From a virus (taxonomy: Duplodnaviria > Heunggongvirae > Uroviricota > Caudoviricetes), in the IMG/VR virus record IMGVR_UViG_3300042445_002023: a stretch of DNA of 64,000 nucleotides. The stretch is one strand, 5' to 3'. The notes under the pieces are model-generated. The model was given only the letters and a program-made list of their open reading frames with translations, ran no database searches and was not told the origin of the DNA. This document shows positions 26,828 to 62,850 of this stretch, in pieces. The position numbers were made by a program, and so were the translations under genes. How positions within the stretch are numbered: position 1 is the first letter of the stretch; each line of letters begins with the position of its first letter.

Positions 26828-27298
26828 ATGGCAAAAAACACACCCCCACAATCAAGTGGCCCTAAGATTATAGGCCAACAGGTGAAGAATCAACTTCAAA
26901 TGAACATCGCTCCTAAATTGGAGACTAAAGATGATGAGGTTGCATTTATCAAATATGATAATCCCAAAATCATAGAACAGGTCGAAAAAGAATATCCAGA
27001 AATGACGGATGAGTTTAAACGACTTATGTTTACTCAATACGAATTGTTTTGTCTAAAACAATCAAACTACGGCCCAAACAATATTTCGGTTGGTACTAAA
27101 TTAGAAACTGCTGAGGATAAGAAATTATCACTAACGGGATTATGGTTTAGAATGAACGATAAAATCCAAAGATTAAAACAATTGGTAGTCCTAAGTAAAG
27201 AGGATTCAGTTGGGGAATCAATAGAAGATACCTTTCAAGACCTATCAGTATATGGAATTATTGCACAAATAGTTTCTAATGGTAAATGGGCAAAATAA
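26828..27298 (+). CDS. hypothetical protein (156 aa)
   Basis: Preceded by the full early motif at 26771-26800. Confidence 0.45.
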   Translation: MAKNTPPQSSGPKIIGQQVKNQLQMNIAPKLETKDDEVAFIKYDNPKIIEQVEKEYPEMTDEFKRLMFTQYELFCLKQSNYGPNNISVGTKLETAEDKKLSLTGLWFRMNDKIQRLKQLVVLSKEDSVGESIEDTFQDLSVYGIIAQIVSNGKWAK

Positions 27299-33766: not shown

Positions 33767-34873
33767 ATGAAATTATTACTAGGAGATTGTTTAGATAAAC
33801 TTAAAGAATTAGATGATAATTCGGTGGATAGTATTGTTACTGACCCGCCATATGGACTTGCATTTATGGGCAAACACTGGGATTATGATGTTCCATCACA
33901 GCAGATATGGGAAGAATGCCTTCGTGTTCTAAAACCAGGAGGTCATATCCTTTCATTCGCGGGTAGTAGAACTTATCACAGAATGGCTGTAAGAATTGAA
34001 GATGCAGGGTTTGAGATTAGAGACCAGATTATGTGGATATATGGTTCAGGGTTTCCTAAATCACATAACATAGGACATAAGTTAGAAGAATGGCAAGGTT
34101 GGGGAACTGCTCTTAAACCGGCACATGAACCTATTGTAATGGCAAGAAAACCTTTGAGTGAAAGCACAGTAGCAGAGAATGTTTTAGAATGGGGAACTGG
34201 TGGGATAAACATAGATGGTTGCAGGATTGAACTTAATGGTGATTATAAATCAAAAGCAAATGGTAGACCCTCATTGACAGGATTAGATGATGGTTATGAT
34301 AGTAGTAACGCTAACATAGCAGATACAATAGGCAGATTTCCAGCAAATGTAATCTTTGATGAAGAAGCAGGTAGGTTATTGGATGAACAAAGTGGAGTAT
34401 CAAAATCACCAGGAGGTAGTGGGGATAAATCAATGGGAGAATTGGGCAAAAACGGTAAATATGGAAACTATGCATTAGATGTTAAAGCTGCAAATTTAGG
34501 TGGATTGGGAGATGTTGGTGGTGCTAGTAGATTTTTCTACTGTCCTAAAACATCAAAGAGTGATAGAAACGAAGGAAGTAATAACACACACCCGACTGTC
34601 AAACCAACGGATTTGATGCTATACCTTATTCGTTTGGTTACTAAAAACGATGGAACGATATTAGACCCGTTTATGGGAAGTGGAAGTACTGGTAAAGCAG
34701 CAATTAGAGGTGGTTTTGATTTTATTGGTATTGAAAGAGAAAAAGAATACTTTGAAATTTCGAAAACAAGAATTGAATATGAAAAAAACAGACCGGTTAG
34801 CAAACCAATAAAAGGAAACCGTGTAGAAGTGAAACCGGAAGTGAAAGAAAAAATAAATCAATTTTTTGAGTAA
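33767..34873 (+). CDS. DNA N6-adenine/N4-cytosine methyltransferase, beta class
   Basis: Motif IV (IVTDPPYGLAF) lies before motif I (LDPFMGSGSTGKAA); the gene is flanked by 40-bp direct repeats. Confidence 0.7.
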   Translation: MKLLLGDCLDKLKELDDNSVDSIVTDPPYGLAFMGKHWDYDVPSQQIWEECLRVLKPGGHILSFAGSRTYHRMAVRIEDAGFEIRDQIMWIYGSGFPKSHNIGHKLEEWQGWGTALKPAHEPIVMARKPLSESTVAENVLEWGTGGINIDGCRIELNGDYKSKANGRPSLTGLDDGYDSSNANIADTIGRFPANVIFDEEAGRLLDEQSGVSKSPGGSGDKSMGELGKNGKYGNYALDVKAANLGGLGDVGGASRFFYCPKTSKSDRNEGSNNTHPTVKPTDLMLYLIRLVTKNDGTILDPFMGSGSTGKAAIRGGFDFIGIEREKEYFEISKTRIEYEKNRPVSKPIKGNRVEVKPEVKEKINQFFE

Positions 34874-38590: not shown

Positions 38591-39823
38591 ATGTATATAG
38601 AGTATTTTGATAAATTTTATGGTATGACACCATATCTTTATATCGGTAAGGAAGAGTGGTCTCACATTAAAAAAACATACCAAAGAGAAGACGTTAAGGA
38701 ATCTCTTGCCAAAGTATGTATGACATATGAATTACCATATGCAGATATTTCTGAAGAGGATGCAAGAAAAGAGTATCTTAAATTAAAAGGAACTCGTTAT
38801 CACGAACTTCTAACCGAAGGTGAGTGGTTTCCTCGTAAGGCATCTGAAACCCGTTATCCATTAGGATTTCAAGGTAAACAACAATATGTAAGAAGGCTGA
38901 ATACTGGTAATGGGGCATCGAATCATTTTCAACAAGCAAATAGATGGAGCGTAGATGGGACAGTATCGCCTGGCCCATTCCGTACTTGGAATAACCCTGA
39001 TTTTATGTTTTCACTAATCGGTGGAATGTATACCCTAAAATTTGATGAGGTTAGTAAAAATACCCTAAGAACTTGTCTATCTTTAAGAAAGTATATTTGT
39101 TCTCAGTTCAAACCAAACGTAGCAAAGGCACTTTATGATTTCGTTCAAGCAAAGAATGTATTAGATATTTCTGCTGGATGGGGTGATAGATTATGTGGAT
39201 TTTTCGCATCAGAATATGGTGAGCATTATGTAGGTATTGACCCGCGTAAAGAAAATCATCCAATATACGAAAAACAAGCCGAATTCTATAAAAAGAATAA
39301 TGGTTTTTTTGAAACTGATAAGAGGGCAACCTTTCATTGTTCTCCCGCAGAGGATATGGATTATAGTGAGTATACCGATTACTTTGATATTGTATTCAGT
39401 TCGCCACCATATTTCAACGTAGAGAGATATTCATATGATGATACTCAAAGTTGGATTCGATATAAAAATATTGATGCATGGAATAAATTATTCTTACATG
39501 CAACGATTGAAAAAGTATGGCCTACTATCCGTAAGGGTGGGTATCTAGCAGTTAATATCGCAGATGTATATGCATCCTCAAAGGGTGATGGCAAAGGTCA
39601 ACAGGAAATCACTAACCCAATGAACGATTTTATTTCCACATTAGAAGGTGCAGAGTATCAAGGATGTTTAGGTATGGAAATGGCTAAGAGGCCAGGTTCA
39701 ATTGGAGCAGGTGCAATGATTGAGGGAGATGAAGACCGATATTCCGAAGAAGAAAAGCAAAAGGCAATTGAAAATGCCGGTAAAACTTTCTGCGAACCGG
39801 TATGGGTATTTAGGAAAATGTAA
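38591..39823 (+). CDS. SPPY-motif methyltransferase-like protein, paralog 1 (putative DNA amino-methyltransferase with an unrecognised N-terminal domain)
   Basis: Motif I-like DISAGWGDRLCGFFAS...HYVGIDP, then motif IV FSSPPYFN about 75 aa later; paralogous to 39828 and 48533. Confidence 0.5.
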   Translation: MYIEYFDKFYGMTPYLYIGKEEWSHIKKTYQREDVKESLAKVCMTYELPYADISEEDARKEYLKLKGTRYHELLTEGEWFPRKASETRYPLGFQGKQQYVRRLNTGNGASNHFQQANRWSVDGTVSPGPFRTWNNPDFMFSLIGGMYTLKFDEVSKNTLRTCLSLRKYICSQFKPNVAKALYDFVQAKNVLDISAGWGDRLCGFFASEYGEHYVGIDPRKENHPIYEKQAEFYKKNNGFFETDKRATFHCSPAEDMDYSEYTDYFDIVFSSPPYFNVERYSYDDTQSWIRYKNIDAWNKLFLHATIEKVWPTIRKGGYLAVNIADVYASSKGDGKGQQEITNPMNDFISTLEGAEYQGCLGMEMAKRPGSIGAGAMIEGDEDRYSEEEKQKAIENAGKTFCEPVWVFRKM

Positions 39824-39827
39824 TTTA

Positions 39828-41048
39828 ATGATAAAAGAATATTTCAAAAAGTTTTATGGAATGACCCCCTATATCAATATTGATAAGGAGGAGTGGAAAC
39901 ATATACTAAATACATTTGAAAAGGAAGAGATAGTAGAAACATTATCAGAAGTATTACATACTTATCCACCACCTATTCCTATTATTACAGAACAAGAAAC
40001 GATTGATGCATATAAAAAGTTAAAGGGTACTTGGTGGCCGGATATTTTAGTGGAGGGAGAATGGTTTCCGCGTAATGAAAGGGAATCTGCATATCCACTT
40101 ACATTTGATAGTAGTAATTATTACTTTAAAAGAACGAATGTTGGTAATAACGCATCCAACCCATTCCATATAGAAAATCGATGGAAGGTAGATTGGTCAA
40201 GAACACCATCAGGTTGGAAGACATGGCAGACAGTTAATGGTATAAAAACCATAGTTCGGGCATTCTTCACATTAGAACAAGTCCTAACTGATGTAAATAA
40301 GGAAACACTAAAGATGGCAACTACATTACGAAAGTATGTGGCATCACAATTCAAACCTGTAATTGCTAAAGCATTTTATGATAGATTCCAAAGTGAGAAT
40401 ATATTAGATTTTTCAGCAGGTTGGGGAGATAGATTATGTGGATTCTTTGCAAGTGAAACGGGTAAACATTATGTTGGTATAGACCCTAATTTAGATAATC
40501 ACCCAAATTATGAAAACCAAATAGAATTTTATCAGAAACACAAAACGTTTTTTGAGAATCCTAAAACTGTGGAACTGATAAAGTTACCGGCAGAAGATGT
40601 GGATTATTCCAAATATGAAAACTTTTTTGATACAATCTTCACTTCACCTCCATACTTCAATACTGAAAAGTATTCCACACATGATACTCAAAGTTATTTA
40701 CGCTATAAAAAGATAGATGATTGGAATACCAATTTCCTACATAAAACAATTAAAAAAATAATCCCTACCTTAAAGAAGGGTGGGTTATTAGCAGTTAATA
40801 TTGCAGATGTATTTTCAGCACCAGATAAGGGGTATGTTGATATTGTAAATGCTATGAATGACTTTATTAAATCAGAGGGATTAGAATATATGGGTTGTAT
40901 TGGAATGGAAATGACAAAAAGGTTTAATTCCGGCGGTGCAGGAAATGCTAAATCTGAATATTTTGCAGAAGAACTCAAAGAAAAAACAGAACTCAATAAA
41001 AATAATGCATTTGGTGAACCCATTTGGATTTGGAAAAAAATAAAATAA
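39828..41048 (+). CDS. SPPY-motif methyltransferase-like protein, paralog 2
   Basis: DFSAGWGDRLCGFFAS...HYVGIDP and FTSPPYFN; start placed at the ATG at 39828, directly after the paralog 1 stop, to match the paralog 1 N-terminus (MIKEYFKKFYGMTPY against MYIEYFDKFYGMTPY). Confidence 0.5.
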   Translation: MIKEYFKKFYGMTPYINIDKEEWKHILNTFEKEEIVETLSEVLHTYPPPIPIITEQETIDAYKKLKGTWWPDILVEGEWFPRNERESAYPLTFDSSNYYFKRTNVGNNASNPFHIENRWKVDWSRTPSGWKTWQTVNGIKTIVRAFFTLEQVLTDVNKETLKMATTLRKYVASQFKPVIAKAFYDRFQSENILDFSAGWGDRLCGFFASETGKHYVGIDPNLDNHPNYENQIEFYQKHKTFFENPKTVELIKLPAEDVDYSKYENFFDTIFTSPPYFNTEKYSTHDTQSYLRYKKIDDWNTNFLHKTIKKIIPTLKKGGLLAVNIADVFSAPDKGYVDIVNAMNDFIKSEGLEYMGCIGMEMTKRFNSGGAGNAKSEYFAEELKEKTELNKNNAFGEPIWIWKKIK

Positions 41049-41054
41049 AATAAT

Positions 41055-41753
41055 ATGACAGTTATAGAAGCAACATCTCCGGGAGATGCATGGGTAAAGG
41101 TATCTAAACACCTTATTGCCAATGGCGTAAAGGTAGGCGATTTAACCGAAGAGTTAAACGTAATGACAGAAATCACCGAATTTAAATCTGATGAATGGTT
41201 CGACCCACATTTTAGAGAAATTATGGGAGATGATAGAATTGATTACGCAAAGACCGTAACCTTCTTAGAACCACAACCAAAGGTATCGGATAACCCATTC
41301 TTTGTAGCCGAAGAGGGATTGGAATACAAATTCATTAAAGACCACTGGCATGATTCATATTGGGGTAGAATGATTGCATGGCAAGGAACATTTAATCAAG
41401 TAGAAAATGTAATTAAAATCCTTAAAACTGGTAAAGCAGTTAAGAGATGTGAATTGATTATCTTTGACCCGAGCAGAGATGCTAGGAATCCATACTCACA
41501 ACCTTGTATGTTAGGGATTGATATTAAACCTCGTGGTGGTAAAATCTACCTAACATCAATCATTCGTTCAAATAGAGTATCCAAATCAGGTTACGCAGAT
41601 TACACTGCATTGGTTGAGATGGGTAAGTTCTTAGCGAGAGAAAGTGGTATGGAGTTAGGGAAAGTTTCAGTTTTAGCTTGTTCTTGTCATATCGGTAAAA
41701 TGAATGATGAAACGAAAAAGACTCATAAGTTATTAGAAGTATTAAATAAATAA
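41055..41753 (+). CDS. thymidylate-synthase-fold enzyme (232 aa); could be a dUMP/dCMP hydroxymethylase or a TS-like pyrimidine-modifying enzyme
   Basis: A candidate nucleophile segment, SQPCMLGIDIKPRGGKIYLTSIIRSNRVS, is similar to the ThyA active site PCH...YQRSxD; shorter than a canonical ThyA. Confidence 0.45.
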   Translation: MTVIEATSPGDAWVKVSKHLIANGVKVGDLTEELNVMTEITEFKSDEWFDPHFREIMGDDRIDYAKTVTFLEPQPKVSDNPFFVAEEGLEYKFIKDHWHDSYWGRMIAWQGTFNQVENVIKILKTGKAVKRCELIIFDPSRDARNPYSQPCMLGIDIKPRGGKIYLTSIIRSNRVSKSGYADYTALVEMGKFLARESGMELGKVSVLACSCHIGKMNDETKKTHKLLEVLNK

Positions 41754-41754
41754 T

Positions 41755-42177
41755 ATGAAAAAAGAACAACAAGAGTTCGTAGCATTTGAACCACAAAAAG
41801 TAAATAGATTTTTAATTGAATTTAATTCCCCATTTGTTATCCCAACATATGCGGTCCATAAAATGAGTGAATTAAAAGTAGTTTGTGTTTATGATGATGG
41901 GTGGGTAAATTGGGGTGATTTAACAATTGAGATGTATGAAACTTCAGAAATTCCAATTGCTTCAATTATTTGCAAGGGATTAGCAGAAAATAAATCTAAA
42001 CAAACTAATACAATTTCGTTTCAATTATTAGAATTAAATGTAGTAGGAGATATTATTCAACGTTGGGAAATCAATGCAAAGATAAAGGATATAGCATTTG
42101 GAAAATATGATTGGTTAAATGATGAGTTGAAAATGATAGAAATGAATTTAAAAGACGTAGAAGCTGATATAAAATAA
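41755..42177 (+). CDS. hypothetical protein (140 aa)
   Basis: Tightly coupled ORF inside the candidate modification cluster. Confidence 0.45.
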   Translation: MKKEQQEFVAFEPQKVNRFLIEFNSPFVIPTYAVHKMSELKVVCVYDDGWVNWGDLTIEMYETSEIPIASIICKGLAENKSKQTNTISFQLLELNVVGDIIQRWEINAKIKDIAFGKYDWLNDELKMIEMNLKDVEADIK

Positions 42178-42182
42178 ATAAT

Positions 42183-43688
42183 ATGTGTGGAATTGTAGCA
42201 ACGATTGGATATAAAAGAGATGATGTGAATGTAATGCTCGAAGCAATTGAGCATCGTGGTAGAGATAATCGTGGTATTAAAGAATTCCAATATAACGATA
42301 AACATATTATCTTAGGACATAACCGATTATCAATCAACGATACTTCACCATTGGGTAATCAACCTATGGAATGGGATGGAGTTGAATTGGTAGTCAATGG
42401 TGAGATTTGGAACTATCCTCAATTGCGTAAAGAATACGAAGGAAGGGGGTATCACTTTAAATCTAATTCAGATTCAGAAATTATTCTATATCTTTACAAG
42501 GAAGGTGAATTAAAGAGATTAGAGGGTATGTTCTCATTCATTATATACGATAATGATAAGTTGATACTATCGAGGGACTGGGTGGGTAAATTGCCCCTTT
42601 ATATTCACAATACAAACAACTATATCATCGCTAGTGAATTGAAATCCATTACAACACAGGTAAAGAGTTCAGATATTAAGTTTGTACCTAAGAATTCATT
42701 GGTAGAAATTGATTTAAATACTGATACGATTGTAGTTCATAAAGATTATTATTTTCAATTCTCAAACGAACCTACTATACCGGCATCACATGAAGAAGTT
42801 GGTGAAACTACATTTAAGTTATTAGAAACTGCAGTAGATAAAAGATTATTATCAGATGTACCAATTGCTACATCACTAAGTGGTGGGATTGATTCTGCAA
42901 TCATTACCTACCTACTATCACAACGTATACCAAACCTAAAAGCATACACAATTGCATTTGATGAAACCTCAAAGGATTTACAAAAGGCAAGAGTATGTGC
43001 GGAGTATTTAGGAGTGGAGTTAGTTGAAGTATTTGTTCCTAAAGATGAAGAAATAATTAAACAAAGATTTTTAGATTCAATTAGAGTAATCGAATATCCA
43101 TCGACCGTTCAAATGGAAGTGGGTATCCTACAATCCTTTATTGCAGAACAAATGGCAAGAGATGGTATTAAGGTAGCATTTAGTGGTGAGGGTTCTGATG
43201 AATCCTATGGTTCGTATGGTACATTCCGTATGTTCAGTAAGAAACCAGATTGGAGTGATGTTCGTAAAAAGTTATTTGAAAAACAATACTATGGTAACCT
43301 ATTAAGAGGTAATACTATCTTTATGAATTATGGAACAATCGAATTAAGATGCCCATTCTTTGATACCGAATTTTTAAACTATACTACTAATTTAACCGAT
43401 GAATACTTATCTAAAGGAGGTCAATGGAAATTACCACTTGCTAATGCATTCAGAGGTAAACTGCCTGATGAGATTTTAGACCAGGAAAAAAGAGCATTTC
43501 AAAAAGGAACAAATTTTAAACAATACATCGAAGAAATCATTTTAAAAGATGAATCTATTAATTTTAAGAAAAGAAAAAATATGATTCATGTCATTGGTGA
43601 TAACTTTGAAAAAATACACGGGTTCTCTCATAGAAAAATGAAAGGAGAATTAACGTCAAACTCAGGAGGAATATATCAATGGATTTAA
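42183..43688 (+). CDS. asparagine-synthetase-like enzyme: class II glutamine amidotransferase fused to a PP-loop ATP pyrophosphatase
   Basis: N-terminal Met-Cys-Gly (MCGIV) nucleophile and PP-loop motif SLSGGIDSA; 501 aa. Confidence 0.65.
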   Translation: MCGIVATIGYKRDDVNVMLEAIEHRGRDNRGIKEFQYNDKHIILGHNRLSINDTSPLGNQPMEWDGVELVVNGEIWNYPQLRKEYEGRGYHFKSNSDSEIILYLYKEGELKRLEGMFSFIIYDNDKLILSRDWVGKLPLYIHNTNNYIIASELKSITTQVKSSDIKFVPKNSLVEIDLNTDTIVVHKDYYFQFSNEPTIPASHEEVGETTFKLLETAVDKRLLSDVPIATSLSGGIDSAIITYLLSQRIPNLKAYTIAFDETSKDLQKARVCAEYLGVELVEVFVPKDEEIIKQRFLDSIRVIEYPSTVQMEVGILQSFIAEQMARDGIKVAFSGEGSDESYGSYGTFRMFSKKPDWSDVRKKLFEKQYYGNLLRGNTIFMNYGTIELRCPFFDTEFLNYTTNLTDEYLSKGGQWKLPLANAFRGKLPDEILDQEKRAFQKGTNFKQYIEEIILKDESINFKKRKNMIHVIGDNFEKIHGFSHRKMKGELTSNSGGIYQWI

Positions 43689-44518
43689 AACTAAAAGGAT
43701 TAACCGAAGATACCCCATTAGAACTTTATCACATTAAGGGTAGAGAAGTATGGGTAAAGAGGGATGACTTGATGGGCGATGGTATGATATTACCGCCGTG
43801 GGGTAAATTAGCAGCATTATTTGAATTGGTTAAAAAATATATTGATAAATCAAAACCACTGGTTCACCTTTCCGTAGATGGTAGTTGGACAGCATGGGCA
43901 TTGAGTGCAATATGTGAGGAATTGGGAATTGAATTTTATGCAGCACACCCTGATTCTAAAAAGATATCACAGGAATATTTGAGAATGATTAAGGAAATGC
44001 ATCCTAAAACAAACCTATATCCAATTAGACCTAATATGATGCAGATTATGTATAATTCGTTAAAGAAAGATGCAAGAGAAAGGGGATGGCAAATGTTACC
44101 TTACGCTTTTGACCACGATTTCTATAAAGATTATCTTGCAGATAGAATTCAACCCCTTGCCCATTTTGATAATTTAGTAGTATCATCTGGTAGTGGTGTA
44201 ACTCTTGCAGGATTAGCAAGAGGATATTATAGAGAGGAACTTAAAGAGTTTTTTCCACAAGTTAAAAAGAAGATTTGGACAACATGTGTATCATCGGTTA
44301 GTTCAATCAATAAAACACTTAAAAAGAGTGGGATTCCAATTCCCCTAAATATACGAAAATCAGAGTATCTATTTGAGAATAGATTAGATGGTTACGAAAC
44401 CCCATTCCCTTGCAACCAATTTTGGGATGTAAAGCAATGGAAGTGGTTAGAAGAAAACATAGACCAAATCGAAGGAACTATTCTATTCTGGAATATTGGT
44501 GGAATTTACAAATTTTAA
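43679..44518 (+). CDS. PLP-dependent fold-type II enzyme of the ACC deaminase / D-cysteine desulfhydrase family
   Basis: Collinear matches to the D-cysteine desulfhydrase family: TPLELYHIKGREVWVKRDDL (family: TPLEYL...REIFIKRDDV), VVSSGSGVTLAGLA, and LFWNIGG; overlaps the upstream stop by 10 nt. Confidence 0.55.
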   Translation: MDLKLKGLTEDTPLELYHIKGREVWVKRDDLMGDGMILPPWGKLAALFELVKKYIDKSKPLVHLSVDGSWTAWALSAICEELGIEFYAAHPDSKKISQEYLRMIKEMHPKTNLYPIRPNMMQIMYNSLKKDARERGWQMLPYAFDHDFYKDYLADRIQPLAHFDNLVVSSGSGVTLAGLARGYYREELKEFFPQVKKKIWTTCVSSVSSINKTLKKSGIPIPLNIRKSEYLFENRLDGYETPFPCNQFWDVKQWKWLEENIDQIEGTILFWNIGGIYKF

Positions 44519-44530
44519 AAAAATAAAATA

Positions 44531-44773
44531 ATGGCAGGTGATATAAAAAAGAAGAGTTCATTTAAACCACATAAGATATCTTTACCAAAAGAAGGTAGTT
44601 TAAAAGCTGAAAAATGGTTCAATCGTAGAGAGGAAGAACTGCGTAAAAAACAAATAAAACAAGAGTTACTTAATCAAGGAATTGATATAAATAAAAAACC
44701 ACCATTTGTAATTAAAGATGGGATACCTCATAAAATAGTTGATGGTAAATTAGTTCCATTAAAAAAACTATAA
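44531..44773 (+). CDS. hypothetical basic protein (80 aa)
   Basis: ORF only. Confidence 0.4.
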   Translation: MAGDIKKKSSFKPHKISLPKEGSLKAEKWFNRREEELRKKQIKQELLNQGIDINKKPPFVIKDGIPHKIVDGKLVPLKKL

Positions 44774-44840
44774 TTAAAACAAAAATGTAAAATTGGGTGT
44801 TAAATCCAATTTATTTTATATTTATAAACAAATAACAAGG

Positions 44841-45206
44841 ATGTCCAATATGATAAAGTTAAAGAATCTAATTACCGAATTCGGCGGAAAACAATTTAAA
44901 GGAGCTGAAGGAATCCCTGCTAATAAATCTTTGGAAAAAATTAGTAAGACTGAAAAGTTAAATATAATCAAAGGTAAAGGTAATATTATTGATTTTATCG
45001 TTCCTGATGAATATAAAGGTAAAAGAAACTTTTGGCAAGTAATATCTACCGGTAGTATTAAAAAATCCTCATCTGGTAAGATTGTTATGTTAATGGGTGG
45101 TGGTCTGATAAATTCTCCATCATTTGATACCATTGATGATTTGATTGATGGTGTGAATTGGAAATCAATGGAAGAGAGAAGAAGATTTAATGAATCAATA
45201 AAATAA
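44841..45206 (+). CDS. hypothetical protein (121 aa)
   Basis: Start taken at the ATG at 44841 after AAGGA; the track began at 44793. Confidence 0.4.
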   Translation: MSNMIKLKNLITEFGGKQFKGAEGIPANKSLEKISKTEKLNIIKGKGNIIDFIVPDEYKGKRNFWQVISTGSIKKSSSGKIVMLMGGGLINSPSFDTIDDLIDGVNWKSMEERRRFNESIK

Positions 45207-48532: not shown

Positions 48533-50167
48533 ATGAGTAAACACTATTACGAAAGGTCTAAATTTTCTGAATTCCAATCCAATACAACTTATCATCGGTT
48601 ATTAGAAATGACTGATGATGAGTTTATTAGTTGGGCAAAGTTACTACGCATAGAAGTAACTAAACAATGGGATACCGATGGTGTTCCTCCTGTTATCGGA
48701 AAAGATAAGAATGATATAATCGATTCATTCAAAAAGTTAAAAACAAATGATTGTGATTTCCTTCAAAAAGATTTGACGGGAGATGATAACTCATTGGGTA
48801 TTTTACAAAACTTCAATAAAGATGCATCAGCCGTAAATCAATTCTTTCCAACTATGTTGAAAACCAAAATATCAATCGGTAAATCAGCAGAAGGTGGATT
48901 ATCTATTTATGACCATTTCTCAGACCCGAAATTAGAAGATACCTTCGTTCATATAATGAAGAGGGCGGTTAAGAAAGATTCTATGTATTCGTGGTCACGT
49001 TCTATTGTGAATAAGAAAGATGAGAATGAATTTTGGGATGGTGAAACTGGAATTGAATTTATACAAAAAGTACATGAAGGTAAAGTGTTCGTTGGTAAGT
49101 ACGAAAACATAGGTATTGTTCTTGCGAAAGTAAAGGAGGATACCTTAGATAATTATGGTACTATCAATGAACAATATATTGGATTTGGTAATCTATACCT
49201 AACTGCTGAACAAGTACAAGAATGTAAGGATAAGGGATGGTTATCACATACTCAATTATCTAATATTAAAACGATTGAACCATCTACCACTTTAAAAGAT
49301 GGGACGGTTAAAAAGTTTTTCTATCTGATTCGTTGGTATGATAAGACAATTGGTATCTTTCCAAAGATATTACAAGTGTTTCGTTTAAGTTGTGGTCAAC
49401 CTGCAGTGAATTTCCCTGCACTAACTGCTAAGTGGTTATACGAACATTACACTTCACATATTGAACAATCAGACCCCCTACACATTTATGATTCATCAAG
49501 TGGATGGGGTGGCAGAATATTAGGTGCAATGAGTTCTCGTAAGAAAACCCATTACATTGGAACTGACCCGAACCCTGATAACTTTATACCGGAATTAGGT
49601 ATTTCACGTTATGAGTATGTGGCTGATTTCTATAACAAAAATTGTGTAGATGATTACTCAGAAACATTTGGTAAGTTCTTTGAGGTTCAAAAACAATCAA
49701 ACACTTATGAGTTATTTCAAGATGGCTCGGAGTTGATTCAACATAATCCTAAGTTTCAAAAGTATGCAGGTAAATTGGATTTAGCATTCACATCACCCCC
49801 ATATTTTAATAGAGAACAATATTCACAAGATGAGAATCAATCATTCAAAGCATATGGTGAATATGAGGATTGGAGACAAAACTTCTTACGTCCTACTCTA
49901 ACTACCATTTATGATTATCTTAAAAATGATAGATACATTCTATGGAACATAGCCGATATTAAAATTGGTAAGGATACCTATTATGCATTGGAACAAGATT
50001 CTATTGATATTCTAACCGGATTAGGTTGTGAGTATAAAGGTAGATTGAAGATGTTAATGACCCGAATGGTAGGATTAGACCCATCTAAAACCGGTATTAA
50101 AAACGCAGTTAAACACGATGGTAAAGCGTATAAGTTTGAACCCATTTTTGTATTTTACAAACCATAA
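48533..50167 (+). CDS. SPPY-motif methyltransferase-like protein, paralog 3, with an extra N-terminal extension of about 300 aa
   Basis: SSSGWGGRILGAM...HYIGTDP and AFTSPPYFN; C-terminal block YILWNIADI aligns with LAVNIADV in paralogs 1 and 2. Confidence 0.5.
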   Translation: MSKHYYERSKFSEFQSNTTYHRLLEMTDDEFISWAKLLRIEVTKQWDTDGVPPVIGKDKNDIIDSFKKLKTNDCDFLQKDLTGDDNSLGILQNFNKDASAVNQFFPTMLKTKISIGKSAEGGLSIYDHFSDPKLEDTFVHIMKRAVKKDSMYSWSRSIVNKKDENEFWDGETGIEFIQKVHEGKVFVGKYENIGIVLAKVKEDTLDNYGTINEQYIGFGNLYLTAEQVQECKDKGWLSHTQLSNIKTIEPSTTLKDGTVKKFFYLIRWYDKTIGIFPKILQVFRLSCGQPAVNFPALTAKWLYEHYTSHIEQSDPLHIYDSSSGWGGRILGAMSSRKKTHYIGTDPNPDNFIPELGISRYEYVADFYNKNCVDDYSETFGKFFEVQKQSNTYELFQDGSELIQHNPKFQKYAGKLDLAFTSPPYFNREQYSQDENQSFKAYGEYEDWRQNFLRPTLTTIYDYLKNDRYILWNIADIKIGKDTYYALEQDSIDILTGLGCEYKGRLKMLMTRMVGLDPSKTGIKNAVKHDGKAYKFEPIFVFYKP

Positions 50168-53671: not shown

Positions 53672-53980
53672 ATGTCAACAGAAGTACAATTAGCAAAACC
53701 ATTAGGAGATAGAGTCCTAATTAAAGTAGAGTCAGGAGAAAAAAAGATTGGTGGAATCATCATACCAGACACTGTTCAAGATGGTGATAACAAATTTGGT
53801 ATAATTGTTTCAGTAGGGAATGGTATTTATACCCAAAATGGAGCTAAAATTCCAATGGAAGTATCAGTAGGTGATAAAGTATTATTACCGCATGGTGGAA
53901 TGAATATTCAAAAAATTAAATTAGATGATACTGAATATTTCTTATGTAGAGAAATGGATTTATTAATGGTTATAAAATAA
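53672..53980 (+). CDS. groES: co-chaperonin GroES (Cpn10) homolog
   Basis: LAKPLGDRVLIKVESGEKKIGGIIIPDTVQD...GIIVSVGNG matches the GroES consensus along its length. Confidence 0.7.
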   Translation: MSTEVQLAKPLGDRVLIKVESGEKKIGGIIIPDTVQDGDNKFGIIVSVGNGIYTQNGAKIPMEVSVGDKVLLPHGGMNIQKIKLDDTEYFLCREMDLLMVIK

Positions 53981-55879: not shown

Positions 55880-57274
55880 ATGACAGAAGTAAGAAAGAAA
55901 AAGAAAATTCTTTTATTATCCGATGATTTCAGAATGTCCTCTGGTATAGCAACTGTATCAAAAGAATTAATTTTTGGTACATTGGATAAGTACGATTGGA
56001 TACAATTAGGTGCAGCAGTAGAACATCCTGAAAAAGGTAGAGAAATTGATTTAGGTGATGATGCTAGAAAAATTAGTGGTGTATTTGATGCTTCAGTTAA
56101 AATCGTTCCGTGGAGTGGTTATGGTGATGCTGATATTTTACGCGAGTTAATAATGAGACATCAACCTGATGCAATCCTACACTTTACCGACCCTCGTTAT
56201 TGGAGATGGTTGTATGATATGGAAGCAGAATTACGTGAAAACGTACCTATTTTCTTTTATCATATTTGGGATGATTTACCAGACCCTCAATATAATAGAG
56301 ATTATTATGAGAGTTGTGATTGGTTAGGATGTATTTCTAAACAAACATATGGTATTGTACGAAGAGTAGGACAAAGAACTGATTCACCAACATTCAAACC
56401 CCTTGAAGATTGGCAAGTATCATATGTACCGCATGGTATTAACTCAAATACCTTCAAACCTGCTGAAGTACCTGATGAATTCCGTAAAAGAGTATTAGGT
56501 GATAAAGATTATAAATTTGTCCTATTTTGGATGAATCGTAATATCAAACGAAAACAACCATCCGATGTCATTTGGGCATATAAACGCTTTGTAGATTCTT
56601 TACCAATTGAAGATAGAGATAAGACTTGCCTAATTATGCATACCCAAGCGGTTGACCAAAACGGAACGGATTTGTTTAAAGTAAAGGAAACCATTTGTCC
56701 TGATTACGAAGTTAAGTTCTCAGAAACTAGAATTTCACAAGAGGAATTAAATTGGTATTATAACTTATCAGATGTTACTATTAACATTGCAGGTAACGAA
56801 GGATTTGGATTAACAACTGCAGAATCAGTAATGGCCGGAACTCCTATTATTGTAAACGTTACGGGTGGATTACAAGACCAATGTGCATTTACATTAGATG
56901 GTAAAGAATTAACGGCAGAAGATTATGTGAAAATCGGTTCGGTACATGATTGGAGAGTATGGGCAGATAAGTTAGGACATGGAGAATGGGTTAACCCAGT
57001 ATTCAGTAAAGTTCAAACACTTGTAGGTTCAGTTCCAACGCCATATATTATTGATGATAAGGTTGATATTTACGAAGTTGCTGATGCAATGAAGTATTGG
57101 TATGATATTCCTAAGAAAGACCGTAAAAAGAGAGGTTTAGCGGGCAGGGAATGGATGTTAAACGAAGGTGGATTAAATCATACAAATATGTGTAAAACTC
57201 TTTCTGATGGTATGGAAACAGCTTTCCAAAATTGGAGACCTAAAGATAGATTTGGATTATATAAATTAAAATAA
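55880..57274 (+). CDS. glycosyltransferase, GT-B fold, family 4-like
   Basis: E-x7-E region NEGFGLTTAESVMAGTPIIV. Confidence 0.6.
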   Translation: MTEVRKKKKILLLSDDFRMSSGIATVSKELIFGTLDKYDWIQLGAAVEHPEKGREIDLGDDARKISGVFDASVKIVPWSGYGDADILRELIMRHQPDAILHFTDPRYWRWLYDMEAELRENVPIFFYHIWDDLPDPQYNRDYYESCDWLGCISKQTYGIVRRVGQRTDSPTFKPLEDWQVSYVPHGINSNTFKPAEVPDEFRKRVLGDKDYKFVLFWMNRNIKRKQPSDVIWAYKRFVDSLPIEDRDKTCLIMHTQAVDQNGTDLFKVKETICPDYEVKFSETRISQEELNWYYNLSDVTINIAGNEGFGLTTAESVMAGTPIIVNVTGGLQDQCAFTLDGKELTAEDYVKIGSVHDWRVWADKLGHGEWVNPVFSKVQTLVGSVPTPYIIDDKVDIYEVADAMKYWYDIPKKDRKKRGLAGREWMLNEGGLNHTNMCKTLSDGMETAFQNWRPKDRFGLYKLK

Positions 57275-57275
57275 T

Positions 57276-57701
57276 ATGAAAGTTAATATAAAAAGGTTAC
57301 AAGAAAATGCAATACTCCCATTTTACGCAAAAGAAAGTGATGCGGGCATGGATTTGGTAGCAACATCAATTAAAGAGAATACTACATTTCAAATAACATA
57401 CGGATTGGGTATAGCATTAGAAATACCAGATGGGTTTATGGGTTTAATTTTCCCGCGTTCATCTATTAGAAATACGGAACTTATTTTAAGCAATTCAGTT
57501 GGAGTAGTTGATGCTGGATATAGAGGAGAACTTCAAGCAACATTCGTTAAATCTAATGGACTTGATTCCCTAGCATATAAAGTGGGAGATAGAGTGTGTC
57601 AACTTATAATCATACCACACCCAATCGTAGAATGGACAGAAGTAAATGAATTAAATAATACCGAAAGAGGAGCCGGAGGTTTCGGTTCAACAGGAAAATA
57701 A
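57276..57701 (+). CDS. dut: dUTP pyrophosphatase (dUTPase)
   Basis: Contains the five conserved dUTPase sequence blocks (AGMDLVA, PRSSI, GVVDAGYRGE, RGAGGFGSTGK). Confidence 0.75.
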   Translation: MKVNIKRLQENAILPFYAKESDAGMDLVATSIKENTTFQITYGLGIALEIPDGFMGLIFPRSSIRNTELILSNSVGVVDAGYRGELQATFVKSNGLDSLAYKVGDRVCQLIIIPHPIVEWTEVNELNNTERGAGGFGSTGK

Positions 57702-57711
57702 AAAATAAAAT

Positions 57712-58998
57712 ATGAGCAAACCATTATTAGTATTTCAAGCACCAGTTTTTACAAGGAGTGGATATGGTGACCATAGTAGAGATTTACTTCAGAGTTTATT
57801 TGATTTAGATAAATATGATGTGAAAGTAGTACCAACTCGTTGGGGTTCTACACCACAAAATCAACTCGATGGTGTGAGTGAATTTAGTAAAAAAGTATTG
57901 AGTAGTGTCATTACAACGTTAGATAGAGAACCGGATGTATATATTCAGGTTACAGTTGCTAATGAATTTAAAAAAATGGGTAAATACAATATTGGTATTA
58001 CCGCAGGAGTTGAAACTACTTTAGCACCAAAGGATTTTATTGATGGTTGTAATAGAATGGATTTAGTTTTAGTACCATCTAACTTTACAAAAGAGGTATT
58101 ACAAAAAACTTCGTTTTCTGAAGTGGATAAAGCATCAGGTCAAAAAATTAGAGATATAAGTGTTCAAACTCCAATTGAAGTTCTTTTCGAAGGAGTTGAT
58201 TTAGATATTTTTTTAAATAGAACTAATCAAGAAACTGATGTTCTTATTAATACTGAAAAATTAGATAAAAAAATTGAAACTGATTTTAATTTCTTATTTG
58301 TAGGTCATTGGTTGAGTGGAGATTTAGGACAAGACAGAAAAGATGTAGGAATGTTAATTAAAACATTTTGTACTATTTTTAAATCCGTTCCAAAAAATAA
58401 ACAACCCGGTTTGATATTAAAAACATCTATGGCTGGATTTAGTATTATCGATAGAGAAGAGATTAGTGAAAAAATTAAAACCATAACAAAAGAATATGGT
58501 GAAAACTGTCCACCTATTTATTTATTATTTGGAGATATGAAATCAAGCGAAATAGCAAATTTATATCATCATCCAAAAGTAAAGGCTATGTTATCATTTA
58601 CTAAGGGTGAAGGGTATGGTAGACCACTTGCAGAGTTTGCTACAACGGGTAAACCTATTATAGTTTCAAAATGGAGTGGATTGACTGATTTTTTACCTGA
58701 AACTAATACTATTTATTTGGATGGAGAATTAACAAATGTCCACCCATCAGCAGCAAACCAATTCTTAATGGCGGAATCACAATGGTTCTCCGTAAATTAT
58801 TCAACTGCAGCACAAAAAATAATGGATGTATTTAAAAATTATAATAAATATTTAGATAGTTCAAAGGGATTACAATCAAATATTAAAAATAATTTTTCAT
58901 TAACAAAAATGACAGAAGTATTTGGCAATTTACTTAACAAATATGTTAAAGTTACAACTCGTGTTGAATTAAAATTACCTAAACTAAACAAATTATAA
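57712..58998 (+). CDS. glycosyltransferase, GT-B fold, family 4-like
   Basis: GEGYGRPLAEFATTGKPIIVS. Confidence 0.6.
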   Translation: MSKPLLVFQAPVFTRSGYGDHSRDLLQSLFDLDKYDVKVVPTRWGSTPQNQLDGVSEFSKKVLSSVITTLDREPDVYIQVTVANEFKKMGKYNIGITAGVETTLAPKDFIDGCNRMDLVLVPSNFTKEVLQKTSFSEVDKASGQKIRDISVQTPIEVLFEGVDLDIFLNRTNQETDVLINTEKLDKKIETDFNFLFVGHWLSGDLGQDRKDVGMLIKTFCTIFKSVPKNKQPGLILKTSMAGFSIIDREEISEKIKTITKEYGENCPPIYLLFGDMKSSEIANLYHHPKVKAMLSFTKGEGYGRPLAEFATTGKPIIVSKWSGLTDFLPETNTIYLDGELTNVHPSAANQFLMAESQWFSVNYSTAAQKIMDVFKNYNKYLDSSKGLQSNIKNNFSLTKMTEVFGNLLNKYVKVTTRVELKLPKLNKL

Positions 58999-58999
58999 A

Positions 59000-59521
59000 A
59001 TGCAATTCTATACTAATCAGTATAAAGAAATATTAAAACCGGAACGAAGAATTAGTAAATCACTAATTTTACCTAGAAACGTTTATCGTATTTCTACATA
59101 TGTTGATGGTGTACCACCAACAAAAGTTGGGATGGAAAGTAGATATGTATTTGTAATTGGTAAAATTGATAACAAAATTCATTGTCTTTTATTGAATCAC
59201 GTCTTGCCTGCTAATTTTATTACATTTTTAAATAAACTTAGAGATAAAACAAAACCAATTGAAAAAGACCAACCCTTAAGCGAATTACTTAAACTAATGG
59301 CTAAAGATGGACAACAATTATTTGAAACACATGTAAAAAGAAATAGAACAATCTATTCACATAAATTAGACAATTATAGAACTTACTTTTTAGATAAAAT
59401 TCAAAATGTTTGGGAAATTAGATTTGAAGATGGATTTTTACAAGAAATATTTAAAGAAGGAAATACTGCTTCAGATAGACGAGAAGTTATTAAAAAAGAA
59501 ATAAACGAAAAAGATGGCTAG
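59000..59521 (+). CDS. hypothetical protein (173 aa)
   Basis: ORF inside the glycosylation cluster. Confidence 0.4.
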   Translation: MQFYTNQYKEILKPERRISKSLILPRNVYRISTYVDGVPPTKVGMESRYVFVIGKIDNKIHCLLLNHVLPANFITFLNKLRDKTKPIEKDQPLSELLKLMAKDGQQLFETHVKRNRTIYSHKLDNYRTYFLDKIQNVWEIRFEDGFLQEIFKEGNTASDRREVIKKEINEKDG

Positions 59522-61238: not shown

Positions 61239-61242
61239 AAAT

Positions 61243-61833: not shown

Positions 61834-61836
61834 TAT

Positions 61837-62832: not shown

Positions 62833-62850
62833 TAAATAAAAAACCCAATT

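What the first reader, a model, noticed from the sequence alone, without database searches (positions are those of the whole stretch)
42183..44518. AsnB-like amidotransferase translationally coupled to an ACC-deaminase-family PLP enzyme
The PLP enzyme's ATG at 43679 lies 10 nt inside the AsnB-like ORF, whose stop is at 43686-43688. This implies coupled translation and a functional pair. The PLP protein aligns collinearly with D-cysteine desulfhydrase / ACC deaminase over TPLE...KRDDL, VVSSGSG and LFWNIGG, but is shorter at 279 aa. It has WGK where the family has GGNK around the PLP lysine. An AsnB-like PP-loop enzyme could adenylate a carboxylate on a nucleotide or amino acid and amidate it. 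A fold-type II PLP enzyme could carry out beta- or gamma-elimination or replacement. As a phage-encoded pair this is unusual.
Basis: partly seen in the sequence, partly recalled or inferred. Interest (0 to 1): 0.65.

Follow-up and report, generated by a model that had tools for sequence, protein, structure and literature searches.

The report
Phage DNA-hypermodification enzyme pair, new module
Two overlapping jumbo-phage genes, an asparagine-synthetase-like amidotransferase and a vitamin-B6 enzyme related to a known DNA-side-chain decarboxylase, belong to a widespread, uncharacterised gene module that most likely decorates the phage's own DNA bases.

Summary
A 501-aa AsnB-like ORF (42183-43688) overlaps by 10 nt a 279-aa fold-type II PLP enzyme (43679-44518), whose Schiff-base lysine is present (K43).

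The interpretation needs sharpening. The PLP protein is only ACC-deaminase-like at fold level. Its real family is small and phage-borne, and includes Pseudomonas phage M6 gp52, a proven PLP-dependent decarboxylase of an amino acid tethered to a DNA base. The best isolate-phage relative of the AsnB-like protein lies in a CmoA/CmoX cluster, where AsnB-family ligases act on a carboxylate carried by DNA.

Across 80 related viral loci the PLP gene is almost always joined, usually by a 1-10 nt overlap, to a PP-loop enzyme, a 2-hydroxyacid-dehydrogenase-like gene or an 'SPPY' methyltransferase-like gene. The window holds three such paralogs. Fusion proteins MT-like+PLP and PP-loop+PLP exist. No 5-HMUDK, aGPT-Pplase, CmoA or CmoX was found, and no cellular orthologs.

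Best reading: an undescribed DNA base hypermodification module. I infer, without proof, that SAM-dependent MT-like enzymes install an amino-acid handle, perhaps 3-amino-3-carboxypropyl. The PLP enzyme would decarboxylate it and AsnB would amidate a carboxylate. The exact chemistry is unresolved.

The parts
42183..43688 (+). AsnB-like glutamine-dependent amidotransferase (501 aa): N-terminal class II GATase domain (Cys2 codon 42186-88) plus PP-loop synthetase domain (S233-GGIDS-238 at 42879-42896)
   Evidence: Pfam GATase_7/GATase_6/Asn_synthase. TIGR01536 282.6 bits against a cut-off of 267.1. PDB 1ct9 E. coli AsnB, E 5e-39. 32% identity over 90% of its length to Streptomyces phage TurkishDelight gp124.
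43679..44518 (+). Fold-type II PLP enzyme of the M6 gp52 family (279 aa). Predicted Schiff-base Lys43 is encoded at 43805-43807; the glycine-rich phosphate loop is SSGSGVT (residues 169-175).
   Evidence: PHROG 7093, E 1e-23, full length. tblastn to M6 gp52, E 4e-16, 96% coverage. K43 aligns with gp52 K36 and is invariant in 37 diverse family members. AF2 model pLDDT 83; Foldseek top hits are D-Cys desulfhydrase and ACC deaminase homologs.
43665..43688 (+). Coupling junction: GGAGG (43665-69), PLP ATG (43679-81), AsnB TAA (43686-88); 10-nt overlap
   Evidence: Read directly from the sequence. The -10 overlap is conserved in most related loci, including those where the upstream gene is a dehydrogenase or a GATase-less PP-loop protein.
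41055..41753 (+). Short thymidylate-synthase-like enzyme (232 aa). Catalytic Cys151 is at 41505-07. Asp182 (41598-41600) sits at the pyrimidine-discriminating position. Probable dCMP C5-hydroxymethylase or methylase.
   Evidence: TIGR03283, E 7e-18. Pfam TS, E 6e-4. In alignment A7, D182 aligns with T4 gp42 D179, while M6 gp58 has Asn there. The gene lies immediately upstream of AsnB in about 40 related loci.
38591..39823 (+). SPPY methyltransferase-like protein, paralog 1 (410 aa)
   Evidence: Weak Pfam N6_N4_Mtase and PHROG 12517 matches. Homologous to the MT domain of the MT+PLP fusion P0324 (E 3e-26). An MT-like gene lies within 6 kb of the PLP gene in most loci.
39828..41048 (+). SPPY methyltransferase-like protein, paralog 2. 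The ORF is listed from TTG 39720; the probable start is ATG 39828. 51% identical to paralog 1.
48533..50167 (+). SPPY methyltransferase-like protein, paralog 3 (544 aa), with a large novel N-terminal domain and a class I SAM-binding fold C-terminal domain
   Evidence: Full-length homology to the N-terminal 500 aa of the MT+PLP fusion P0339 (E 6e-40). AF2 model pLDDT 86; Foldseek finds only generic class I SAM methyltransferases.
41755..42177 (+). 140-aa ORF of unknown function inserted between the TS-like gene and AsnB. It is a variable insert, not a conserved module member.
   Evidence: Present only in the window and L004. In other relatives TS-like and AsnB are 4 nt apart or overlap. No Pfam or PHROG match.

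Best explanation
The pair is the tailoring core of a phage-encoded nucleobase (DNA) hypermodification module.

Shown:
- The PLP protein belongs to the small phage family of M6 gp52 and has the catalytic lysine.
- The AsnB-like protein has an intact glutaminase site and an intact adenylating PP-loop site.
- Both genes are tied by conserved synteny, overlap and fusion proteins to each other, to SPPY SAM-fold transferase-like genes and to a TS-like gene.

Inferred mechanism:
1. The TS-like enzyme, which has Asp at the cytosine-discriminating position, supplies a C5-modified dCMP.
2. After replication, one or more SPPY MT-like enzymes attach an alpha-amino-acid-bearing side chain to a base. [quoted passage not shown]
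3. The PLP enzyme forms an aldimine with the free alpha-amine of that side chain and decarboxylates it to a primary amine, as gp52 does.
4. The AsnB-like enzyme adenylates a base-tethered carboxylate and amidates it with glutamine-derived ammonia, as proposed for the GATase-bearing CmoY relatives.

I could not resolve whether decarboxylation and amidation are alternative fates of one handle, act at different sites, or act on different carboxylates. The biological purpose would be protection of phage DNA from host nucleases.
For: PLP protein:
- tblastn finds only M6/YuA-type phages (64 records, about 25% identity, 96% coverage).
- M6 gp52 is the experimentally shown PLP decarboxylase that converts C-alpha-glycinylthymidine in DNA to 5-NedU, with K36 proposed as the aldimine lysine (PMC8989533).
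- K43 aligns with K36, and the motifs PFPCNxFWDxKxWxWL and FWNIG are shared.
- K27, R28, D30 and K43 are invariant in 37 family members.
- The family is small: 344 clusters among 1.84 billion representatives.

Fusion proteins:
- P0312, P0339 and P0324 combine an N6_N4_Mtase-like domain with this PLP domain. Their MT parts are homologous to the window's MT544 and MT410.
- P0291 combines a PP-loop domain with the PLP domain.

Synteny in 80 viral loci:
- Observed orders are TS>AsnB>PLP, TS>PP-loop(308 aa)>PLP, AsnB2>DH>PLP and MT>PLP>DH>MT>AsnB2.
- These include lineages whose PolB is only 34% identical to the window's.
- Start/stop overlaps are conserved.

AsnB-like protein:
- Its best isolate-phage homolog, TurkishDelight gp124, lies between a CmoX homolog (37% identity) and a CmoA homolog.
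- CmoY is an AsnB-family ligase shown to act on 5-carboxymethylcytosine in DNA, and its GATase-bearing relatives are predicted to amidate (PMC12783734).
- The 308-aa GATase-less variant hits S-B43 CmoY.

Other support:
- A class I SAM-fold acp transferase followed by a PLP decarboxylase is a known pairing: MccD/MccE in microcin C (PMC11350588).
- The module lies inside the replication and nucleotide-metabolism block, between RNR and PolB.
Against: - No chemistry was tested.
- A decarboxylase and a carboxylate amidase compete for the same carboxylate if the handle is a mono-carboxylic amino acid.
- The PLP protein is only about 25% identical to gp52, so its reaction type could differ.
- The MT-like proteins score only at or below the Pfam gathering threshold and give generic SAM-methyltransferase fold hits. 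Nothing shows that they transfer acp rather than methyl, or that they act on DNA.
- Some loci (for example L066) carry only DH>PLP, with no MT-like or AsnB gene within 7 kb.
- The fusion P0339 is a singleton on one contig and could be a gene-calling artefact.
- Only 64 kb of a genome of about 286 kb was seen, so installer genes of known types could lie elsewhere.
Confidence: 0.55

Rival explanations
1. Same module, but the PLP enzyme installs the amino acid rather than trimming it. As a typical fold-type II enzyme, it would form an aminoacrylate from serine, O-acetylserine or O-phosphoserine and add it to a nucleophile on the base, for example the hydroxyl of 5-hydroxymethylcytosine made by the TS-like enzyme. 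AsnB would then amidate the new alpha-carboxylate.
For: The TS>AsnB>PLP triad is tightly linked and needs no kinase or aGPT-Pplase. Structural neighbours include O-acetylserine sulfhydrylases. This reading removes the conflict between a decarboxylase and an amidase.
Against: The only characterised family member (M6 gp52) is a decarboxylase. Family-wide invariant residues suggest conserved chemistry. This reading does not explain the MT+PLP fusions or the DH variants.
Confidence: 0.15
2. The enzymes act on free nucleotides before replication. They would build a modified dCMP or dNTP that the phage polymerase incorporates.
For: The TS-like enzyme is adjacent and works on nucleotide monophosphates. 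RNR, thioredoxin and dUTPase genes are nearby.
Against: M6 gp52 and CmoY both act on polymerised DNA. The linked MT-like proteins carry the SPPY motif typical of nucleic-acid amino-methyltransferases. No nucleotide kinase specific for a bulky dNMP was seen in the window.
Confidence: 0.12
3. AsnB is an ordinary asparagine synthetase and the PLP enzyme an amino-acid lyase. They would be auxiliary metabolic genes that rewire host amino-acid or nitrogen metabolism.
For: AsnB passes the TIGR01536 equivalog cut-off. It keeps E348, D351, Y357, K376, R387 and K449 equivalents in the alignment to E. coli AsnB. JGI annotates its relatives as asparagine synthase.
Against: It fails the AsnB model NF006949 (252 bits against 499). 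D384 is replaced by Asn. In sister phages it is replaced by a divergent AsnB2 or by a GATase-less 308-aa PP-loop protein at the same position. The PP-loop+PLP and MT+PLP fusions, the membership of the PLP protein in the gp52 family and the absence of cellular orthologs of the PLP protein also argue against it.
Confidence: 0.06
4. The pair modifies a glycan or another non-nucleic-acid molecule, for example amidation of a uronic acid on glycosylated DNA or on a surface polysaccharide.
For: Several glycosyltransferase genes and a sugar epimerase/dehydratase gene lie 12-20 kb downstream. From my own knowledge, AsnB homologs amidate uronic acids in some O-antigen pathways.
Against: The glycosyltransferase genes are not syntenic with the pair in related loci. 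Sugar-modifying PLP enzymes are fold type I, not type II. The closest relatives of both proteins are in DNA base-modification clusters.
Confidence: 0.05

Closest known systems
Pseudomonas phage M6 gp52 (and, more distantly, Salmonella phage ViI gp226): PLP-dependent decarboxylases of amino-acid:nucleobase conjugates in DNA (Lee et al., NAR 2021, PMC8989533)
   Same: Full-length homology (PHROG 7093; about 25% identity). Same length. The aldimine lysine is aligned (K43/K36). The C-terminal motifs are shared. It is phage-encoded and lies beside replication genes.
   Different: No 5-hmdU DNA kinase, aGPT-Pplase or radical-SAM isomerase accompanies it. Instead it is coupled to an AsnB-like enzyme and to SPPY MT-like genes. 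The adjacent TS-like enzyme looks cytosine-specific rather than uracil-specific. ViI gp226 was not retrieved at E<=1e-3.
CmoA/CmoX/CmoY system of Synechococcus phage S-B43 and the GATase-bearing 'ligase' cluster (Yang et al., Nat Commun 2025, PMC12783734)
   Same: An AsnB-family PP-loop enzyme acts, or is predicted to act, on a carboxylate handle carried by a DNA base. The window's AsnB is 32% identical to the GATase-bearing member in the TurkishDelight CmoX/CmoA cluster.
   Different: No CmoA (Cx-SAM synthase) and no SPPC C5-cytosine methyltransferase (CmoX) in the window. Similarity to SpCmoY itself is marginal (25% over 129 aa). A PLP enzyme is not part of the Cmo system.
MccD/MccE-NTD aminopropylation of microcin C (PMC11350588)
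   Same: The logic is the same: a class I SAM-fold enzyme transfers 3-amino-3-carboxypropyl, then a PLP enzyme decarboxylates it to aminopropyl. Here MT-like and PLP genes are adjacent or fused.
   Different: MccE-NTD is a different PLP fold (a group IV decarboxylase). The substrate there is a peptidyl-nucleotide, not DNA. No homology was shown. This is an analogy only.
ACC deaminase / D-cysteine desulfhydrase (PDB 1j0a, 4d8t)
   Same: Fold type II. Best structural neighbours in the PDB (TM about 0.65). The KRDDL...K and SGSG motifs are collinear.
   Different: Far below the family score cut-offs. About 45 residues shorter. It has its own conserved C-terminal motif. No cellular orthologs were found.
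Diphthamide synthesis (Dph2 acp transfer, Dph6 PP-loop amidation); own knowledge
   Same: An acp group from SAM whose carboxylate is then amidated by an ATP-dependent PP-loop enzyme.
   Different: It is a protein substrate, a radical-SAM acp transferase and has no PLP step. This is an analogy only.

Membership tests
M6 gp52-type PLP decarboxylase family (PHROG 7093) | Full-length sequence homology to gp52 | tested here: met
   PHROG 7093, E 1e-23, residues 10-274 against profile positions 4-278 of 279. tblastn to M6, E 4e-16, 96% coverage.
M6 gp52-type PLP decarboxylase family (PHROG 7093) | Lysine equivalent to gp52 K36 (internal aldimine) | tested here: met
   K43 aligns with K36 and is invariant in 37 diverse members. 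In the AF2 model it sits at the N-terminus of helix 44-54.
M6 gp52-type PLP decarboxylase family (PHROG 7093) | Genomic association with 5-hmdU DNA kinase and aGPT-Pplase (thymidine hypermodification cluster) | tested here: not met
   Every + strand ORF of at least 90 aa in the window was scanned with Pfam. tblastn with M6 gp51, gp53 and gp54 found nothing in the window or in the 80 related loci. The rest of the genome (about 286 kb in total) was not seen.
M6 gp52-type PLP decarboxylase family (PHROG 7093) | Decarboxylation of a DNA-tethered alpha-amino acid | not testable with these tools
   Requires an enzymatic assay.
ACC deaminase / D-cysteine desulfhydrase family | Score above the curated family cut-off | tested here: not met
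   TIGR01275: 25.9 bits against 289.4. Pfam PALP: 21.8 against 35. PDB 1j0a: E 0.008.
ACC deaminase / D-cysteine desulfhydrase family | Fold-type II PLP fold with the lysine at the family position | tested here: met
   Foldseek top hits are 4d99, 4d8t and 1j0a (E 1e-10 to 1e-8, TM 0.65). The HMMER alignment places K43 on the GGNK lysine.
Asparagine synthetase B (glutamine-hydrolysing) | N-terminal Cys nucleophile, glutamine-site residues and PP-loop SGGxDS | tested here: met
   MCGIV..., HNRLSI, NGEIWN, SDSE, SGGIDS and SGEGSDE are present.
Asparagine synthetase B (glutamine-hydrolysing) | Curated equivalog score | tested here: inconclusive
   TIGR01536: 282.6 against 267.1 (passes). NF006949 AsnB: 252 against 499 (fails).
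Asparagine synthetase B (glutamine-hydrolysing) | Aspartate-site residues and asparagine synthesis | tested here: inconclusive
   E348, D351, Y357, K376, R387 and K449 equivalents are kept and D384 is replaced by Asn (alignment). The residue roles come from my own knowledge. Activity is not testable here.
CmoY-type DNA-carboxylate amide ligases (CmoA/CmoX/CmoY system) | Homology to a cluster member | tested here: met
   32% identity, 224 bits, to TurkishDelight gp124, whose neighbours are CmoX-like (37% identity to SpCmoX) and CmoA-like. Similarity to SpCmoY itself is only 25% over 129 aa.
CmoY-type DNA-carboxylate amide ligases (CmoA/CmoX/CmoY system) | Co-occurrence with CmoA and an SPPC C5-cytosine carboxymethyltransferase | tested here: not met
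   tblastn with SpCmoA, SpCmoX, TurkishDelight gp123 and gp125 against the window gave no significant hit. The window's MT-like genes carry SPPY, not SPPC.
SAM-dependent acp transferase plus PLP decarboxylase (MccD/MccE-like logic) | SAM-fold transferase functionally linked to the PLP enzyme | tested here: met
   MT+PLP fusions P0312, P0339 and P0324. MT>PLP adjacency with overlap in about 16 loci.
SAM-dependent acp transferase plus PLP decarboxylase (MccD/MccE-like logic) | Transfer of 3-amino-3-carboxypropyl (MTA released) rather than methyl | not testable with these tools
   The fold search gives only generic class I SAM methyltransferases.

The most novel reading that the evidence does not exclude
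A previously undescribed class of DNA hypermodification. Methyltransferase-fold 'SPPY' enzymes would transfer the 3-amino-3-carboxypropyl group of SAM onto a DNA base (an exocyclic amine of A or C, or the hydroxyl of 5hmC). A gp52-family PLP decarboxylase would then trim the handle to an aminopropyl group, and/or an AsnB-type amidotransferase would amidate it in a diphthamide-like way. This would be a kinase- and aGPT-Pplase-independent route to cationic DNA, widespread in uncultured jumbo phages.
Probability: 0.25. Interest if true: 0.9.

Novelty: new variant of a known kind. Interest (0 to 1): 0.7.

Why it matters
Phage DNA hypermodifications defeat restriction enzymes and CRISPR nucleases, and they supply enzymes for DNA labelling and sequencing chemistry.

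The two characterised routes to amino-acid-derived side chains are 5-hmdU kinase plus aGPT-Pplase (M6, ViI) and Cx-SAM plus CmoX plus CmoY (S-B43). This module reuses one tailoring enzyme from each route, but it has neither installer. Its partners are instead SAM-fold SPPY proteins, a cytosine-type TS-like enzyme or a 2-hydroxyacid dehydrogenase.

The module is abundant in metagenomes: more than 500 protein clusters at 90% identity for the close PLP lineage, and 191 IMG/VR loci. It sits in phages of about 286 kb.

If the handle is SAM-derived, it would be the first acp or aminopropyl modification of DNA. Yang et al. noted that they found no N6-adenine or N4-cytosine carboxymethyltransferases linked to CmoA in phages; a SAM-derived handle would bear on that gap. 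The candidate genes and fusion proteins listed here make the question directly testable by co-expression and nucleoside mass spectrometry.

Tried and rejected
- Megablast of the 12-kb neighbourhood against isolate phages found no match.
- Neighbourhood searches for known installers (5-HMUDK, aGPT-Pplase, rSAM isomerase, CmoA, CmoX) in the window and in 80 loci were all negative (Pfam and PHROG scans).
- The two large word-indexed protein searches were saturated by relatives of at least 70% identity and gave no distant or named homologs.
- The search with the fusion P0339 showed it is a singleton, and its contig had no DNA held.
- Scans of the cellular genome collection gave no relative of the PLP protein. 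For AsnB they gave one hit at 32% identity, a Bacteroidetes MAG. Both scans depend on short exact patterns, so only fairly close relatives could be found.
- Two alignment-based locus scans failed for lack of conserved stretches.
- The structure and fold search of MT544 gave only generic class I SAM-methyltransferase neighbours, so it could not distinguish methyl from acp transfer.
- Literature searches for acp or aminopropyl DNA modifications, or for an MTase+PLP+AsnB module, found nothing. The Mom paper and the pelagiphage paper were not relevant.
- I considered and rejected ordinary asparagine synthesis and glycan amidation as the main reading (see the rival explanations).
Full report
**1. 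The observation**

The window is one long + strand gene array. ORF 42183-43688 encodes 501 aa and ORF 43679-44518 encodes 279 aa. The sequence shows ATG at 43679 and the upstream TAA at 43686-88, a 10-nt overlap, with GGAGG ten bases upstream of the ATG.

The first protein matches Pfam GATase_7/GATase_6 (N-terminal) and Asn_synthase (C-terminal). It aligns with E. coli AsnB (PDB 1ct9, E 5e-39) and keeps Cys2, the glutamine-site motifs, the PP-loop SGGIDS and SGEGSDE.

The second protein gives only a sub-threshold Pfam PALP match. HMMER nevertheless aligns it collinearly with the Pyrococcus ACC-deaminase homolog 1j0a, placing K43 ('WGK') on the lysine of 'GGNK'. An AlphaFold model (pLDDT 83, pTM 0.83) has D-cysteine desulfhydrase, ACC deaminase, threonine deaminase and O-acetylserine sulfhydrylase as its closest solved folds (TM about 0.65).

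**2. What the PLP protein really is**

- PHROGs places it full-length in family 7093 (E 1e-23).
- tblastn against 50,697 phage records hits only 64 genomes, nearly all M6/YuA-type Pseudomonas and Bordetella phages (about 25% identity, 96% coverage).
- In M6 the hit is gp52. Lee et al. showed that gp52 is a PLP-dependent decarboxylase that converts C-alpha-glycinylthymidine in DNA into 5-(2-aminoethyl)-dU, and proposed K36 as the aldimine lysine (PMC8989533).
- K43 aligns with K36, and both proteins share a C-terminal signature, PFPCNxFWDxKxWxWL...FWNIG.
- An exhaustive HMMER scan of 1.84 billion cluster representatives finds only 344 clusters at E<=1e-3. The huge cellular ACC-deaminase family is not reached, so this is a small dedicated family.
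- In 37 diverse members K27, R28, D30 and K43 are invariant.
- TIGR01275 scores 25.9 bits against a cut-off of 289.

'ACC-deaminase family' is therefore right at fold level and wrong at family level.

**3. What the AsnB-like protein resembles**

It just passes TIGR01536 (282.6 against 267.1) and fails the AsnB model NF006949. Its best isolate-phage relative is Streptomyces phage TurkishDelight gp124 (32% identity over 90%). That gene lies between a homolog of CmoX (37% identity to S-B43 CmoX, with the PPC motif) and a homolog of CmoA, next to two ParB-like genes.

This is the architecture described by Yang et al. CmoX puts a carboxymethyl handle on cytosine C5 in DNA. CmoY, an AsnB-family ligase, amidates it with glycine. 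A second large cluster of 'ligases' carries the glutaminase domain and is predicted to use ammonia (PMC12783734). AsnB-family enzymes acting on a DNA-borne carboxylate are thus an established concept, and the window's protein is nearer to that group than to E. coli AsnB.

**4. The pair is part of a larger, conserved module**

I fetched 80 IMG/VR loci whose PLP protein is 43-97% identical to the window's and mapped the neighbours by tblastn.

| Gene order around PLP | Approximate number of loci |
|---|---|
| (MT)>TS-like>AsnB>PLP(>MT), the window type; includes a tight 4-gene MT544>TS>AsnB>PLP form | about 40 |
| TS-like>308-aa PP-loop protein>PLP (the PP-loop protein has no glutaminase domain) | 6 |
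| AsnB2 (35% identical, 541 aa)>D-2-hydroxyacid-dehydrogenase-like>PLP | 8 |
| MT>PLP>DH>MT>AsnB2, in phages whose PolB is only 34% identical | 16 |
| DH>PLP, or PLP>X>DH>MT, without a detectable AsnB | a few |

The 308-aa PP-loop protein weakly matches S-B43 CmoY. The variants with DH and without AsnB are documented.

A PP-loop enzyme lies within 6 kb in about 68 of the 81 loci (80 plus the window), and an SPPY MT-like gene in about 60 of 81. None of the loci, and no ORF of the window, matches 5-hmdU kinase, aGPT-Pplase, the rSAM isomerase, CmoA or CmoX (Pfam on every + strand ORF of at least 90 aa).

The PLP start overlaps the stop of whichever gene lies upstream, by 10, 8, 4 or 1 nt, in nearly all loci. 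Overlaps are common in this genome, so coupling alone is weak evidence. Its persistence across 45%-identity divergence and across partner swaps is not.

**5. Fusion proteins**

Among the family representatives, several fuse the PLP domain to a partner domain:
- P0312 (712 aa), P0339 (816 aa) and P0324 (1385 aa) carry an N6_N4_Mtase-like domain followed by the PLP domain. P0324 adds an aminoacyl-tRNA-transferase-like LPG_synthase_C domain.
- The N-terminal 500 aa of P0339 are homologous over their full length to the window's 544-aa protein (E 6e-40). The MT part of P0324 is homologous to the window's 410-aa protein (E 3e-26).
- P0291 (657 aa) fuses a PP-loop domain ('SSGKDS'; weak QueC and PP-loop matches) to the PLP domain.

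The domain orders mirror the gene orders MT>PLP and AsnB>PLP. One caveat is that P0339 is a singleton and could be a miscalled gene pair.

The three window paralogs (38591-39823, about 39828-41048, 48533-50167) all carry (S/T)SPPYFN after a GxG SAM-binding motif. The AF2 model of the 544-aa protein (pLDDT 86) has a generic class I SAM-dependent methyltransferase C-terminal domain and a novel N-terminal half.

**6. The TS-like gene**

The 232-aa protein resembles the short archaeal-type thymidylate synthases (TIGR03283, E 7e-18) and short TS genes of Gram-positive phages. In an alignment with T4 gp42 and M6 gp58, the catalytic Cys is conserved. The residue aligned with T4 dCMP-hydroxymethylase Asp179 is Asp182, whereas the 5-hmdU-producing M6 gp58 has Asn there.

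From my own knowledge, this Asp/Asn position discriminates cytosine from uracil in the TS family. This points to a cytosine C5 modification (5hmC or 5mC) rather than the thymidine pathway of M6. It is an inference from one alignment column.

**7. Mechanism**

Shown:
- Family memberships.
- Intact catalytic motifs.
- Synteny, overlaps and fusions.
- Absence of the known installer genes from the window.
- Absence of cellular orthologs of the PLP protein in 185,579 species-representative genomes, and of close AsnB orthologs. Both of these scans are pattern-limited.

Inferred: the module hypermodifies phage DNA. The PLP enzyme needs a free alpha-amine next to a carboxylate. The simplest way for a SAM-fold enzyme to supply this is to transfer SAM's 3-amino-3-carboxypropyl group, followed by PLP decarboxylation to aminopropyl. 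This is exactly the MccD/MccE logic of microcin C (PMC11350588). AsnB would amidate a tethered carboxylate, following CmoY logic or, from my own knowledge, diphthamide-like logic.

Unresolved:
- Why both a decarboxylase and an amidase are present.
- What the dehydrogenase variants do.
- Which base is targeted.

I give about 0.55 to the general DNA-hypermodification reading and about 0.25 to the specific acp chemistry.

**8. Comparison and novelty**

The PLP enzyme works like, and is a sequence member of, the gp52 family, but it fails that family's contextual feature (kinase plus aGPT-Pplase). AsnB is related to the GATase-bearing CmoY-like ligases but lacks CmoA and CmoX. Full-text searches found no description of an MT-like+PLP+AsnB module or of acp or aminopropyl DNA bases.

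Lee et al. noted unexplained 'amidoligase and glutaminotransferase' genes in some hypermodification contigs. Yang et al. stated that they found no N6-adenine or N4-cytosine carboxymethyltransferases linked to CmoA in phages.

I rate this a new variant of a known kind: a phage DNA hypermodification pathway with a different installer and a new combination of tailoring enzymes. The lineage is abundant, with 505 clusters at 90% identity for the PLP protein and 191 viral loci. It belongs to jumbo phages of about 286 kb with a T4-like replication module.

Noticed in passing
window 38591-39823, 39828-41048, 48533-50167: Three paralogous 'SPPY' methyltransferase-like genes with large unknown N-terminal domains. 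Homologs elsewhere are fused to the PLP domain. Remote relatives occur in Bacteroides, Staphylococcus/Mammaliicoccus and Vibrio phages.
   Followed up: partly
window 41598-41600 (Asp182 of the TS-like protein, 41055-41753): The TS-like enzyme has Asp where T4 dCMP hydroxymethylase has Asp179 and M6 dUMP hydroxymethylase has Asn. This suggests a cytosine-specific C5 modification.
   Followed up: partly
window 55880-57274, 57276-57701, 57712-58998: Two GT4 'conflict-system' glycosyltransferases flank a dUTPase/dCTP-deaminase-like gene. They are candidates for glycosylating a hydroxymethylated base in DNA.
   Followed up: no
window 59514-63495: Glycan-type gene cluster: GT2, Glyco_trans_1_2, Methyltransf_24, NAD-dependent sugar epimerase/dehydratase, GT2.
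   Followed up: no
window 43660-43688 and 44495-44518; related loci: The overlap junction ATGGnTTnTAA, where the upstream protein ends in Trp-Ile/Phe, is kept whether the upstream gene is AsnB, the dehydrogenase or the 308-aa PP-loop protein. The AsnB C-terminus ...SGGIYQWI resembles the PLP C-terminus ...IGGIYKF.
   Followed up: partly
window 41755-42177 and 44531-45206: Small ORFs (140, 80 and 137 aa, no family match) are inserted inside or next to the module. They are absent from most close relatives (for example L002), so they look like variable or mobile inserts.
   Followed up: partly
L012 7201-8055; L057 11016-11894; L066 6134-6937: A D-2-hydroxyacid-dehydrogenase-like gene replaces the TS-like gene as the PLP partner in other phage lineages. 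In L066 the arrangement is only DH>PLP>ThyX, with no MT-like or AsnB gene nearby. Its role is unexplained.
   Followed up: partly
L049 8437-9968: Two Asp/Asn beta-hydroxylase-like (cupin/2OG) genes lie directly upstream of the PLP gene in the PLP>X327>DH>MT variant.
   Followed up: no
window 33767-34873 and 26828-27298: A bona fide N6/N4 DNA methyltransferase (Pfam E 1e-36) and a DUF1599 'nucleotide modification associated domain 1' protein lie in the same replication block.
   Followed up: no
window 15889-16665, 19947-20858, 22628-23293, 53672-53980: PhyH-type dioxygenase, SPFH/Band-7 protein, non-specific DNA/RNA endonuclease and a Cpn10 (GroES) homolog are encoded by the phage.
   Followed up: no
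P0324 residues 1086-1290 (metagenomic protein): The MT+PLP fusion protein carries an additional LPG_synthase_C-like (aminoacyl-tRNA-dependent transferase) domain. This hints that the PLP product may be further aminoacylated in some systems.
   Followed up: no
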